Below are positions 53,346 through 60,280 of a DNA stretch of 64,000 bases, in pieces. The notes beneath the pieces were generated by a model. The model saw nothing but the letters and a program-made list of their open reading frames with translations. It ran no database searches and was not told the origin of the DNA. Numbering within the stretch: the first letter of the stretch is position 1; each line of letters opens with the position of its first letter. The translations under genes were made by a program, and so were the position numbers. The stretch is from Plasmodiophora brassicae (Eukaryota), in contig CP145413.1 in the NCBI GenBank assembly GCA_036867785.1, positions 868,001 through 932,000 on the forward strand, in the 5' to 3' direction.

Positions 53346-56300
53346 ATGGCGTCGTCGTCGATATCGTTCGCATCGACGGCCGCCGAAATCTCCAAACGCG
53401 ACGAGGACGATGACTTGCAGGGAAGCTCGGCAATGAAGGCCGTCCAAACGTTCGGCGAACACGTCTTCGAATTGACAAGCGCCCTTGCCGTCGAATCCAG
53501 CTTGCCTCTCTGGTACCTCGGGGCAGCGCGTCCCCTTCCTGGCCGGCGTTTAACCCGCCCACATAGGTTCGTCATCATCAGCGCCCTCCTCGAGTACCTC
53601 CAGCAGATGCGCGTCCTGTTCCCCAACGTGGGGCAGCCGCCGAACATCCCCTGGGGGATCCTCTACAACGAATGGATCCGTGTACTGACCGGGTCGGTCT
53701 CCGACCAGGCGTTCCGGTCCGCATTCGGTTCGTCCTCCTACATCGCCGTCCTGACGGTGATCGCCGTTCTCGTCGCCGGCTCCGCCTCGATCGCGTCCAT
53801 GTTGGCGGAGAACAGGAAACCGAACGTGATCATCGTTCGAGCGACCGCGATTCTGTCCCGCGTCCTCGTGACGCCCCTGTTCCTGCCGATGATGTCCGTC
53901 CTGCTTGGCAGCATCAACGCGCGCGCGTCCATCCCCGTCATCGTCGTGTCAGCGGGCACCGCCGTTCTCCTCGTCGCGGTCGCCTACGTCGCCACGGCCA
54001 CCGTCAACGACATCGACCTGTACGGGGGCGGGCGCGTCCGAATCGTCGTTCAACCAGCAATCGGCTGACCCAGGTTCCGCCAGGCTATCCGACGACCCGA
54101 CCGCCAGGTTCCACTCCCGCGTTCAGCTGATGTCGCTGACGTTCAACAGCGTACGTGGCGAACCCGCCTCGTCGGACGCGTCTGACGTTGGGCCCAGTTG
54201 CTCGTTGTTCTGGCGTACGCGTTGCAGGCCAGCCCTGGTGTCTTCGCCGTGCTGAACCTGGCCGGCGCCGTCTACGTCGCCTACGTCTACACGTGGTACA
54301 TCCCGTTCAACAACGACGGGCTGTCGGCGCTCCAGAGTGGGCTTTCCTGGTGCTACGCCTGGGCATCAGCCGCGGGTCTGTGTACCCGGCAACCGGCGCC
54401 CCCCCGTCATCGTCGCTGACGCCCCGATCGCCGCCCGCAGGCGTCGTGTCCGTGATGCAGAACGACCCGACGAACACGGGCCCGTCCTTCATTGTGTTCG
54501 GCGGCGTCCCGATCGTGTTCGTCGCCGCCGTCGTCGCCTCCACGTTTCGGTCGCGGTTCGTGCGGAACAGCGCCGGGCACCACCTCGCCAGCGCGTTCGA
54601 GATCGAACGCAAGGCCCGGTACATTATTCGCGACGCGTTCCAGACGAACACGAACGACGACAAGGGCAAGGTCGGGAACAAGGTGGGCAGGGACGGGGCG
54701 CGCGCGTGCGTGCGTGCCCACCGTTGCCCTGGCCGACACTGACGCGTCTGCCGACCAGGACGACGAGGACGACCGTCTGAAGCAGCAGGCGCGGGAGCTG
54801 GGTCGCCTACGGGCGATCCTGACGCAGGGCATGGTCCGGTTCCCGGACGCGTCCGTCCTGCCGCTGCTGGCCGGGTTCCTGTACTTCCGGTTCTTCAAGC
54901 TGAACTTCATCGGGTACAAGCACCTGCGCGAGGCCCAGAAGAGGGACATGTTCCCCGACATGCGCGTCCTGCTGCTGCGGCTGCATCGCGACAACCAGAG
55001 GAAGATCCTCGAGTCGGAAGGTTCGTCGTCGTCGGGCCGCCATACCGGGCTCTCCTCCCCCGCTGACGCAGCGTCCAGCGAACCGCGACGTCGTCGAGTT
55101 CAACACGTACAACGAGCTGCTGATGAAGGCGCAGGGCCACGACCTGGCGATGACGAAGGCCATGGTGAACTTCTGGGACGCGCTCTGCGAGGACAACCCC
55201 GACCTGAAGATGGTGCGGGGCCTGTCGGCGACCATCAGCCAGGAATCGGTCAACGCCCTGTCCGCCTACCAGCAGGCGCTTGCAGTCGGGCCCCCACCGA
55301 TTCACGAATCGCCACGACGGCTGTCACTGACATCTGTCCACATGGCAGATCCATGCGGATTCGGAGGTGGTCCTGAAGACGTACGCCGGCCTGCTGACCG
55401 TCCTGCTGCAGGACACCAACGAGGTAGGGCGGGCGCATGGGCCGGTGACCCCCGCCTGGTTAAGGACGATCGCCCTCCCGTAGGCGAACCGGTTGCTGGC
55501 GAGGACGCGCGAGATTGAAGCGCGGAACAAGATCCTGTTCAAGAGGGAGACGGACTCGTTCCGCACGCTGCTCTTCTCCGATCACAGGCACGTCCCGACC
55601 GGGGCGTCGGCGCCGATCGCCCCCCGTCGTCTGAACCGGTCGCGCACAGCTCCGTCGTCGTCATCTCGGGCGACGACGCGTCGATGGGCACGATCCTGGC
55701 GGTGAACTCGTTCGCCCCGCAGATGTTCGGCGTGCCCGAGAAGGACATTGTCGGGTCGAACGTGTCGATGCTGATGCCGGAGCCGTTCGCCAGCATCCAC
55801 GACGCCGTCATGAAGCGCAACCTGATCAACGGCGAACGCGTCATCAACAGACGGTTCGGCGAGCGCATGCGCTCGTGTGTGTGTGCACGCTGACCCACGA
55901 TCGTCGTCGTCGCAGGCGCCCCGTTGTCATCCTGCACCGCTCCGGGTACATTTACGACACGCAGATCCACATCAAGGTGTTCATCCAGCAGATGACCTCG
56001 CTGTGCTTCATCGGCGTGATCGAGATCACGAACAAGGACCAGGTCCAGATCGTCGTCGGTGCGTGGGATCGCGTCAGGGTTCGTTGTTGGCGCCCGACCC
56101 TGACGGCTGACCCGGGGGGGGCGTGCTGCCCACGTAGACGGCAACCACATGGTGACCGCGATCTCGTTCACAGCGCACCAGAAGTTCGGCGTCCAGCTGA
56201 GCGCGATCGCCTCGCGTAAGTTCGGCATCGACAACCTCATCAAGGATTACGAGGCGACGCGCACCGAGGTCATCGGCAACCAGGTCAGCCGGGACCGCGC

Positions 56301-59300: not shown

Positions 59301-60280
59301 TGCTGCTGGCCAAGGCAAGTCTGTCGCCCGACCAGACCATGTACTTTGGCACCATGGTCGACTGCCTGGCACTGTCCGTGTTCACGCTCATTGCCGTCGT
59401 GACCGGGTTCCCAGGTACGTTCGTCGCCCGTCGTCCGCCTTGGCCACGGCGCTCGCTGACGAGGGGCTGGACGGCCAGTGTCAGCCGGGTTCGTCGTCTG
59501 GGCGAGCGTGCCCGCCGCGATCGGGTCCTGCGCCGTCTTCCTGCTGCAGTACTACGGGCTGGTCGTCGACGACACCGTCTACCTGGTGATCCTGTCGGCC
59601 ATGATGGCCGGGGCCGGCTGCGCCATCGCCATCTGCGTCGTCAGCTTCTCGTCCACGGCGTCGTCCAGCCTGGCGGCCATCGATTCGTCCACGAAGGTCC
59701 CTCCGGCGCCTTCGGCTGGTGTGCGCGCACGCTGAACCCTCCTCCCAGATGGACATCTTTGGGATCGCGGCGCTGGGCGGCGCGGCCAGCACGTTGAGCG
59801 GGATCGGCCTGCCGACGATCCTGTACGGCCTGTCGACCCTGTACTTCCGTCTGGACAACAAGGTCGCCGTTGTCGCCGATGTGTATGTGTGCAGGCGCCC
59901 GGGTGCCGACGGTTTCCTCGCAGGTGTCCACGTCGACGGCGCTGATCGTCACCTGGGTGAACGCGTTCTGCAACCTCGGGTTCCGGTCGCTGCTGCTGGA
60001 CGCCCCGGCCAGGCAGGCGTCTCTGCGGCTGTTTCTGGCGTGCTTCCCGGCGGTGGCCGCCGGCAGTACCTTGGGCACCTACGTCCTGCTGCGGTTGTCG
60101 ATGGGCGCGATCCGCGTCGTGCTGTACGGGTCGTTGCTGGTCCAGTCCATCCTGGTCGCCGCCGTGTTCTCCGTCGCCTCGACGTTCTACGCGTTCGTGG
60201 CGATCGCAACGCTGATCGTGTCGACCGTCACCTTTGTGATCATTGGCATTGGCGGGTACATACGGAGCGTCGCCGCATAG
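53346..60280 (+). CDS. TmcB/TmcC-like PAS membrane protein (paralogue 2), apparently fused to a C-terminal TauE/SafE (TSUP)-like domain
   Basis: N-terminal transmembrane block (LEYLQQM), PAS segment (GTILAVNSFAPQMFG..DIVGSNVSMLMPEPFASIHD, 55650-55853) and the family end motif PFLQRLSKELEHSRVLLRLIP. Predicted in-frame splicing then continues into exons 58958-59094, 59170-59414, 59479-59696, 59749-59862 and 59924-60280. Confidence 0.72.
57737..57754 (+). repeat. (CAG)6 coding microsatellite (polyQ)
   Basis: Encodes KQQQQQQP in the Tmc-like paralogue 2. Confidence 0.85.

What the first reader, a model, noticed from the sequence alone, without database searches (positions are those of the whole stretch)
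53346..60280. PAS-domain TmcB-like sensor spliced in frame to a TauE/SafE (TSUP) transporter domain: candidate transceptor
Seen: after the terminal motif PFLQRLSKELEHSRVLLRLIP there is a well-formed 68-nt intron (GTAGGG at 58890, CTGAC at 58933, CAG ending 58957). It joins in frame to KNEPRALTRGHIATLKFQRLF... and on through four more exons to the TAG at 60280. The joining exon has no ATG, and the nearest upstream ATG (58867) is out of frame and stops at once, so the downstream domain has no obvious independent start. Known: that domain (WPTFVTGAVSS...SLSPDQTMYFGTMVDC; GGAASTLSGIG...LYFRLDNKVSTSTALI...ACFPAVAAGSTLG) follows the two-repeat pattern of TauE/SafE sulfur-compound transporters. The in-window paralogue at 28270-33679 stops right after the equivalent motif. 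Inference: this is a lineage-specific fusion coupling a PAS signalling membrane protein to a transporter fold. The Gly-rich motif of the first TSUP repeat looks degenerate (STVSATSS), which would suit a sensing role. I do not know of this architecture being described.
Basis: partly seen in the sequence, partly recalled or inferred. Interest (0 to 1): 0.75.

Follow-up and report, generated by a model that had tools for sequence, protein, structure and literature searches.

The report
PAS membrane protein with TSUP-like tail
One spliced gene of a GC-rich protist joins a PAS-containing, TmcB-like membrane protein to a divergent transporter-like (TauE/TSUP-type) tail; the fusion is seen in RNA-derived contigs, but what it does is untested.

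Summary
With 22 introns the frame is open from ATG 53346 to TAG 60280: 23 exons, 1841 aa. Third-position GC is 0.91-0.97 across the linker and all five 3' exons, as in upstream exons.

The upstream part is TmcB-like, with a TPR_TmcB hit above Pfam's cut-off and a PAS hit just below it on one exon. The in-window paralogue lies on the minus strand and stops at 28270, three residues after the equivalent motif.

TauE/TSUP kinship is supported only for the last ~160 aa (exons 59749-60280). Support there comes from a TSUP repeat-unit HMM, a weak Pfam TauE hit on a homologue, and protein-atlas look-alikes. No exon reaches Pfam's threshold. The proposed first repeat is not detectable.

The transceptor role is untested. 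One bridging intron (58583-58655) is inferred, and it is retained in one contig. Verdict: a real, lineage-specific domain fusion of moderate interest.

The parts
53346..60280 (+). Whole coding region: 23 exons, 22 introns, 1841 aa. Introns: 53513-53566, 54020-54083, 54151-54197, 54376-54440, 54683-54758, 55021-55078, 55285-55348, 55424-55483, 55588-55649 (GC-AG), 55854-55915, 56059-56137, 56698-56761, 56862-56928, 57283-57353, 57982-58036, 58167-58234, 58583-58655, 58890-58957, 59095-59169, 59415-59478, 59697-59748, 59863-59923.
   Evidence: Fourteen introns are listed joints. 55285-55348 fits an X1 loose end. Five more (54683-54758, 55021-55078, 55588-55649, 55854-55915, 56698-56761) fit the contig-length arithmetic exactly: 382 and 131 bases skipped. 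54020-54083 and 58583-58655 are inferred from frame and splice signals. The frame is open.
53346..54682 (+). N-terminal block of about six hydrophobic segments (aa 46-323).
   Evidence: Kyte-Doolittle scan. Residues 253-346 are collinear with the paralogue.
55081..55284 (+). TPR_TmcB region (aa 458-525).
   Evidence: Pfam PF25474, E 4.8e-07, 30.2 bits, cut-off 27.
55651..56057 (+). PAS fold, split by intron 55854-55915.
   Evidence: Pfam PF00989, E 5.4e-4, 20.4 bits (cut-off 22.6), on the 67-aa exon 55651-55851 alone.
58583..58655 (+). Intron needed to keep the frame between the TmcB-like body and its last membrane segment. It was not among the listed joints.
   Evidence: GT..AG with a CTAAC branch-like site. 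The X7 contig ends at 58582, and the next one starts at about 58657 by arithmetic. The paralogue has an intron at the same place. The intron is retained in the X4 contig piece 58235-58889.
58656..58820 (+). Last TmcB-type membrane segment and the conserved terminal motif PFLQRLSKELEHSRVLLRLIP (58758-58820).
   Evidence: The paralogue motif ...HETRIKRMANLLPDYR* stops 3 residues after LLP.
58821..58889 (+). 23-codon linker with no stop codon, lying beyond the point where the paralogue ends.
   Evidence: GC3 is 0.91.
58890..58957 (+). Fusion intron (68 nt, GTAGGG...CTGAC...CAG).
   Evidence: Joint 58889^58958 is present in X4, X7 and X9.
58958..59696 (+). Exons A-C (58958-59094, 59170-59414, 59479-59696; aa 1486-1685). 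About five hydrophobic segments, and no family assigned.
59749..60151 (+). TSUP/TauE-like four-helix repeat unit (aa 1688-1799), interrupted by intron 59863-59923.
   Evidence: Repeat-unit HMM hit covering positions 4-110 of 115. hhalign supports it. The homologue P0002 matches Pfam TauE and has TauE look-alikes in the protein atlas.
60152..60280 (+). One extra C-terminal membrane segment ending G[IV]GG.IRS, then TAG.
   Evidence: The ending is conserved in P0002, P0003 and P0005.
28270..33680 (-). Distant TmcB-like paralogue without the C-terminal module.
   Evidence: tblastn collinear matches at 23-26% identity, best E 1e-11. The stop is at 28270. No match to the C-terminal module was found elsewhere in the window.

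Best explanation
This is one gene. A TmcB-family multi-pass membrane protein with cytosolic TPR_TmcB and PAS regions has lost the stop that its paralogue keeps. A 68-nt intron joins it in frame to a 356-aa, roughly ten-helix membrane module. The last four to five helices of that module derive from a TSUP (TauE/SafE) repeat unit. Shown: the splice, the open frame, the coding signature across the junction, the TmcB/PAS identity, and TSUP-repeat similarity in the last ~160 aa. Inferred: the tail folds as a TSUP-type carrier or pore for a small anion (sulfite- or sulfonate-like). Also inferred: its activity is coupled to the PAS/TPR region on the same chain. I think regulation of transport by PAS is more likely than the tail acting as a sensor that signals, because no output domain was seen.
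For:: the five 3' joints are present in 3 of 4 runs (three studies). One X4 contig of 6861 letters runs from before 54198 to beyond 60700; the frame is open for 1841 aa. GC3 is 0.91-0.97 in the linker and exons A-E. TPR_TmcB is above cut-off, and PAS has E 5.4e-4; the paralogue stops 3 residues after the shared motif; exon E has only 3 plausible relatives among 1.84 billion representatives; of those relatives, P0002's only Pfam hit is TauE (E 0.0081, 16.3 bits); 30 of 30 atlas feature hits for P0002 are TauE clusters (score 0.94, 215/256 shared), and the best structural row is TauE (TM 0.63); an HMM of 72 repeat units from 36 bacterial TauE proteins hits the spliced protein only at aa 1688-1799 (14.5 bits, i-E 2.2e-6); on the 162-aa segment the score is 20.1 bits. 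None of 1000 shuffles reach it (max 12.2), and the reversed sequence scores 1.8. Among 304 window ORFs the best hit is exon E's own frame; hhalign of the second-half family against TauE gives score 29.8, E 6e-4, while 40 shuffles of the Pb second-half sequence alone (real score 20.7) reach at most 16.3.
Against: No exon of the tail matches PF01925 at E<=10. P0002 stays under the 32.6-bit cut-off. A whole-length TauE HMM gives the tail only -2.5 bits, against a best of -4.8 among 20 shuffles. hhalign probabilities are low, at 5.5-28.5%. The first half shows no TSUP signal and no detectable repeat with the second half. In the repeat test, 757 of 2000 shuffles reach the observed score. The Gly-rich motif is degenerate. 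Intron 58583-58655 is not among the 15 joints shown and is retained in the X4 contig, which would break the frame in that form. Intron 54020-54083 is retained in the X7 contig. Contigs here run across neighbouring genes, so one contig is not one transcript. The runs' kind is not on record. No transport or signalling data exist.
Confidence: 0.6

Rival explanations
1. There are two products from one locus. The TmcB-like protein ends early through retention of 58583-58655 or 58890-58957 (TGA at 58979). A shorter transcript from an internal start near 58600-58670 (in-frame ATGs at 58668 and 58674) makes a ~430-aa protein. That protein would consist of the last TmcB helix plus the transporter-like module. 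The fused protein would then be minor or absent.
For:: the X4 contig retains 58583-58655. X7 contigs break at 58582 and about 58657, with mean depths of 15.5 upstream and 46.2 downstream. X9 shows 13.9 against 20.6. X1 holds only the unspliced form of 58037-59414. Contigs bridge neighbouring genes in this dense genome.
Against: Contig depth is a mean over the whole contig, and the downstream contigs run more than 1 kb into the convergent neighbour. The X7 breaks sit exactly on intron borders, as expected from a spliced/unspliced bubble. The linker and exon A carry GC3 of 0.91-0.93 in the fused frame, and exon A has no ATG. The paralogue has an intron at the same position.
Confidence: 0.15
2. 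The C-terminal module is not of TSUP descent. It would be a lineage-specific bundle of hydrophobic helices whose Gly/Pro motifs resemble TauE by convergence and composition.
For: It is below Pfam and NCBIfam thresholds. hhalign probability is low. The first half is unassigned. There are only 3 relatives in 1.84 billion representatives. Hydrophobic composition could explain part of the ranking.
Against: The repeat-unit hit covers 107 of 115 positions in register and beats 1000 of 1000 composition-matched shuffles and the reversed sequence. The only Pfam family found for P0002 is TauE. All 30 atlas feature hits are TauE, and the best structural row is TauE.
Confidence: 0.2
3. The tail is TSUP-derived but no longer transports. 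It would serve as a membrane anchor, a targeting or oligomerisation module, or a ligand-sensing pseudo-transporter.
For: The Gly-rich motifs are degenerate: STVSATSS in the first half and GIGLP in place of GxGGG in the second. The divergence is very high.
Against: GC3 and the open frame show that the tail is kept as coding. The C-terminal G[IV]GG.IRS ending and the TM3 motif are conserved among the 4 family members. Pfam found no signalling output domain on the 17 of 23 exons scanned one by one, and such a domain would be needed for a receptor role.
Confidence: 0.25

Closest known systems
TSUP / TauE-SafE family (Pfam PF01925; TC 2.A.102), e.g. E. coli YfcA
   Same: Residues 1688-1799 align in register with the family's four-helix repeat unit. 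The shared features are the Gly-rich first helix followed by Pro, the polar Ser/Thr start of helix 2, and the G..lG..lG third helix. Hydropathy suggests a 1+4+4+1 arrangement.
   Different: Typical members are free-standing, 280 +/- 57 aa, with 7-9 segments in a 4+4 layout (table in PMC7176098, passages read). Here the module is the tail of an 1841-aa protein and stays below Pfam's cut-off. Its first half is unrecognisable, its GxGGG motifs are degenerate, and it has an extra helix at each end.
TmcB-like PAS membrane proteins (Pfam PF25474 TPR_TmcB), including the in-window paralogue at 28270-33680 (minus strand)
   Same: The N-terminal helix block, the TPR_TmcB and PAS regions, the later helices with long loops, and the terminal helix plus motif are collinear with the paralogue.
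   Different: The paralogue stops 3 residues after the motif. This gene reads on through a linker and an intron into the transporter-like module.
Bacterial proteins with an N-terminal trypsin-like peptidase domain and a C-terminal TauE domain
   Same: A TauE module is used as the C-terminal membrane part of a larger protein. This was seen in 2 of 3 long TauE-bearing ORFs examined, of 651 and 771 aa.
   Different: The partner domain is unrelated (Trypsin_2, not PAS/TmcB). These proteins are bacterial, and their TauE domains are canonical (122-140 bits).
Transceptors, and PAS-regulated channels such as KCNH (recalled, not tested here)
   Same: The idea of a sensor domain and a transport-type membrane domain on one chain.
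   Different: No homology was tested or claimed. No evidence of either signalling or gating exists for this protein.

Membership tests
TSUP / TauE-SafE (PF01925) | Reaches Pfam's gathering score for PF01925 (32.6 bits). | tested here: not met
   The five tail exons scanned singly give no TauE hit at E<=10. The homologue P0002 scores 16.3 bits, E 0.0081. The spliced tail could not be handed to the Pfam tool, because joined sequence may not be typed.
TSUP / TauE-SafE (PF01925) | Sequence of the four-helix repeat unit (Gly-rich helix 1 plus Pro, helix 2, G-x3-G helix 3, helix 4). | tested here: met
   Met for the second half only. aa 1688-1799 matches repeat-HMM positions 4-110 of 115, at 14.5 bits in the full protein and 20.1 bits in the segment. 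None of 1000 shuffles reach that score. hhalign gives E 6e-4.
TSUP / TauE-SafE (PF01925) | Two homologous repeat units (4+4 segments, 7-9 in all). | tested here: inconclusive
   Hydropathy fits 1+4+4+1. The first half has no hit to the TauE profile or the repeat HMM. First half against second half is no better than shuffles: 757 of 2000 reach the observed score. No fold prediction of the spliced tail was possible.
TSUP / TauE-SafE (PF01925) | Transport of sulfite, sulfonates or similar small anions. | not testable with these tools
   None.
TmcB-like (PF25474 TPR_TmcB) | TPR_TmcB domain above Pfam's cut-off. | tested here: met
   30.2 bits against 27, E 4.8e-07, on exon 55081-55284.
PAS (PF00989 clan) | PAS fold above Pfam's cut-off. 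| tested here: inconclusive
   20.4 bits against 22.6 on a 67-aa exon that holds only part of the domain. Four other PAS-type models also match weakly.
Transceptor | A transporter-fold domain that senses substrate and triggers signalling. | not testable with these tools
   No output domain was found on 17 of 23 exons scanned singly. Domains split by introns could be missed.

The most novel reading that the evidence does not exclude
This would be a eukaryotic membrane protein in which a PAS sensor and a TSUP-type carrier are one polypeptide, so that sulfur-anion flux, or sensing of such a compound, is directly tied to a PAS-detected cue. It would be a regulatory design not described for the TSUP family.
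Probability: 0.12. Interest if true: 0.7.

Novelty: new variant of a known kind. Interest (0 to 1): 0.45.

Why it matters
TSUP/TauE proteins are widespread but poorly understood. Profile searches with two TauE alignments found no solved structure in the PDB. A natural fusion to a PAS/TPR sensor would point to how such carriers can be regulated. It would also give the uncharacterised TmcB-like family a first hint of a membrane-transport partner. In addition, it shows that this locus needs a 23-exon, 1841-aa model. Word-based searches of the protein collection found no protein longer than 208 aa sharing exon E and none longer than 365 aa sharing the 208-aa exon.

Tried and rejected
- Sequencing runs: no RNA holder listed. 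The runs' kind is a guess, and the spliced contigs themselves are the evidence.
- No whole genome is held for this window.
- The search for homologous proteins, lengths 'longer', found nothing with exon E or with the 208-aa exon 57356-57979. Public annotation of this gene could therefore not be seen.
- Two metagenome scans (family alignment A2, then P0002 alone) found no relative. Conservation of the fusion in other organisms is untested.
- NCBIfam gave nothing for the tail exons or P0002, and only two chance-level rows (E 0.39 and 4.5) for P0005.
- The atlas search with exon B scored 0.81 with no family.
- The whole-length TauE HMM is barely above shuffles.
- The hhalign tool run of A2 against A3 aligned only 28 columns, with probability 5.5%.
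- The reverse search, with a family HMM against 211 bacterial ORFs, put TauE in the top 9 places and in 29 of the top 36 (AUC 0.935 over 36 against 99 scored ORFs). Most decoys are probably soluble proteins, so I give this little weight.
- tblastx of the locus against the window was swamped by GC-rich composition.
- A minimal-intron search gave an unrealistic model and was dropped.
- An alternative to the GC-AG intron (55606-55649 with 55840-55915) keeps the frame. It misses the contig-length arithmetic, 378 against the 382 observed.
P0002 was not folded, because no TSUP structure exists in the PDB to compare it with.
- Literature: 'tiny macrocysts/tmcB' gave nothing relevant among the 10 listed. 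'Plasmodiophora brassicae + PAS domain' gave 3 papers. In PMC8298192 (passages read) a 'PAS domain S-box' gene is only named as nitrogen-responsive.
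Full report
**The observation.**
The intron starts GTAGGG at 58890, has CTGAC at 58933 and ends CAG at 58957. An out-of-frame ATG sits at 58867. 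A TGA ends the frame at 58979 if the intron stays in, and the final TAG ends at 60280.
- I laid the contigs of four public runs on 52800-60700. Their kind is not on record. Three of the four (X4, X7, X9, from three studies) hold contigs that skip exactly 58890-57, 59095-169, 59415-78, 59697-748 and 59863-923. All skips have GT..AG ends and 114-220 letters on the shorter side.
- The same contigs also lack nine upstream introns. They therefore derive from spliced RNA rather than from a genomic deletion. X1 keeps an unspliced stretch from 58037 to 59414.

**Gene model.**
- Fourteen introns came straight.
- Intron 55285-55348 is fixed by an X1 loose end that matches 55349 onward.
- Five further introns, at 54683-54758, 55021-55078, 55588-55649, 55854-55915 and 56698-56761, are fixed by the number of bases the contigs skip: 382 between 54681 and 55914, and 131 between 56697 and 56927. 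Intron 55588-55649 must be GC-AG to fit both the frame and this arithmetic.
- Two introns are inferred only from frame and splice signals. These are 54020-54083 (retained in the X7 contig) and 58583-58655.
- Intron 58583-58655 matters because the frame into the last TmcB helix depends on it. It has GT..AG ends and a CTAAC site. The X7 contigs break at its two borders, and the paralogue has an intron at the same place. However, the X4 contig retains it.
- With all 22 introns removed, the frame is open from ATG 53346 to TAG 60280, giving 1841 aa.
- GC at third codon positions is 0.91 in the linker and 0.93-0.97 in exons A-E, as in upstream exons. The junction region is therefore coding in the fused frame.

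**The upstream protein.**
- Single exons give TPR_TmcB above Pfam's cut-off and PAS just below it. Hydropathy shows an N-terminal helix block and four later helices.
- A distant paralogue lies on the minus strand between about 33680 and 28270. It is collinear at 23-26% identity, with best E 1e-11.
- The paralogue ends ...RMANLLPDYR*, three residues after the counterpart of ...SRVLLRLIP. In our gene 23 further codons follow without a stop, and then comes the splice.
- Nothing else in the window resembles the tail.

**The tail (aa 1486-1841).**
- No exon matches TauE in Pfam or anything in NCBIfam.
- Exon E searched against 1.84 billion representatives gave five hits. One was the window's own genomic ORF (P0001), one was a repeat protein taken as chance (P0004), and three were real-looking relatives: P0002 (201 aa, 34% identity, E 6.5e-10), P0003 and P0005.
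- P0002 spans the equivalents of exons C-end, D and E without interruption. Its only Pfam hit is TauE (E 0.0081, 16.3 bits, profile 1-109).
- The protein atlas returns TauE clusters for 30 of 30 feature hits for P0002 (score 0.94). Its best structural row is also TauE (TM 0.63).
- I collected 36 TauE proteins from 39 bacterial genomes. A whole-length HMM barely separates the tail from shuffles.
- An HMM of the 72 repeat units hits the spliced protein once, at 1688-1799, over 107 of 115 positions. On the 162-aa segment it scores 20.1 bits. The maximum among 1000 shuffles is 12.2, and the reversed sequence scores 1.8. The best of 304 window ORFs is exon E's own frame.
- hhalign of the second-half family against TauE gives E 6e-4 with probability 28.5%.
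- The first half (exons A-C) gives nothing by the TauE profile or hhalign, the repeat HMM or the atlas. It is also no more similar to the second half than shuffles are.
- The tail therefore very likely contains one TSUP-derived repeat. A full 4+4 TSUP fold is plausible from hydropathy but not shown.
- No TSUP structure is in the PDB by profile search.

**Function.**
- Nothing here tests function. I favour a TSUP-type carrier whose activity is coupled to the PAS/TPR region of the same chain.
- A pure sensor role would need an output domain, and none was seen on the 17 of 23 exons scanned.
- Fusions that use TauE as a C-terminal membrane module do exist in bacteria, with a trypsin-like domain as partner.

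**Limits.**
- Contigs in this dense locus run across neighbouring genes, so they cannot prove a single molecule.
- An internal start near 58600-58670 cannot be excluded.
- Conservation of the fusion in relatives could not be tested.
- Public annotation could not be seen.
- The organism was not identified.

**Verdict.** This is a real in-frame splice joining a TmcB-like PAS protein to a divergent, partly TSUP-like membrane module. It is a new variant of known kinds and of moderate interest.

Noticed in passing
window 55588-55649: A GC-AG intron (GCACGT...CACAG, 62 nt) is required by both the reading frame and the number of bases skipped in the RNA-derived contigs.
   Followed up: partly
window 54020-54083 and 58583-58655: Two introns are retained in single contigs (X7 and X4 respectively). 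Each retention would cut the open frame short, so this could be regulated intron retention or simply unprocessed RNA.
   Followed up: partly
window 54539, 57942, 60634: Contigs of 2-4 runs leave the window sequence at these points for letters found nowhere in the window on either strand. 54539 lies at the end of a GC-rich simple stretch (GTCGCCGCCGTCGTCGCC), so shared words with other loci are the likely cause there. The cause at 60634 is unexplained.
   Followed up: partly
window 60302-60967, minus strand: A convergent neighbour's open frame ends 22 bases from this gene's TAG. The RNA contigs run from one gene into the other, so the 3' ends probably overlap.
   Followed up: no
window 52820-53073, plus strand: An upstream plus-strand gene with an intron at 52820-52870 ends at about 53073. 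One X7 contig of 11.4 kb joins it to the 5' exons of this gene.
   Followed up: no
window 12119-12430, plus strand: tblastx found a 104-aa match (32.7% identity, 52 bits) to the region after the PAS domain (56174-56485). It was not recovered by tblastn with composition correction, so it may be compositional.
   Followed up: partly
L119:662-2614 and L120:600-2912 (bacterial genomes G029, G005): These are bacterial proteins of 651 and 771 aa with an N-terminal trypsin-like peptidase domain fused to a canonical C-terminal TauE domain. About a dozen similar open frames of 641-693 aa appear in the 41-genome sample.
   Followed up: partly
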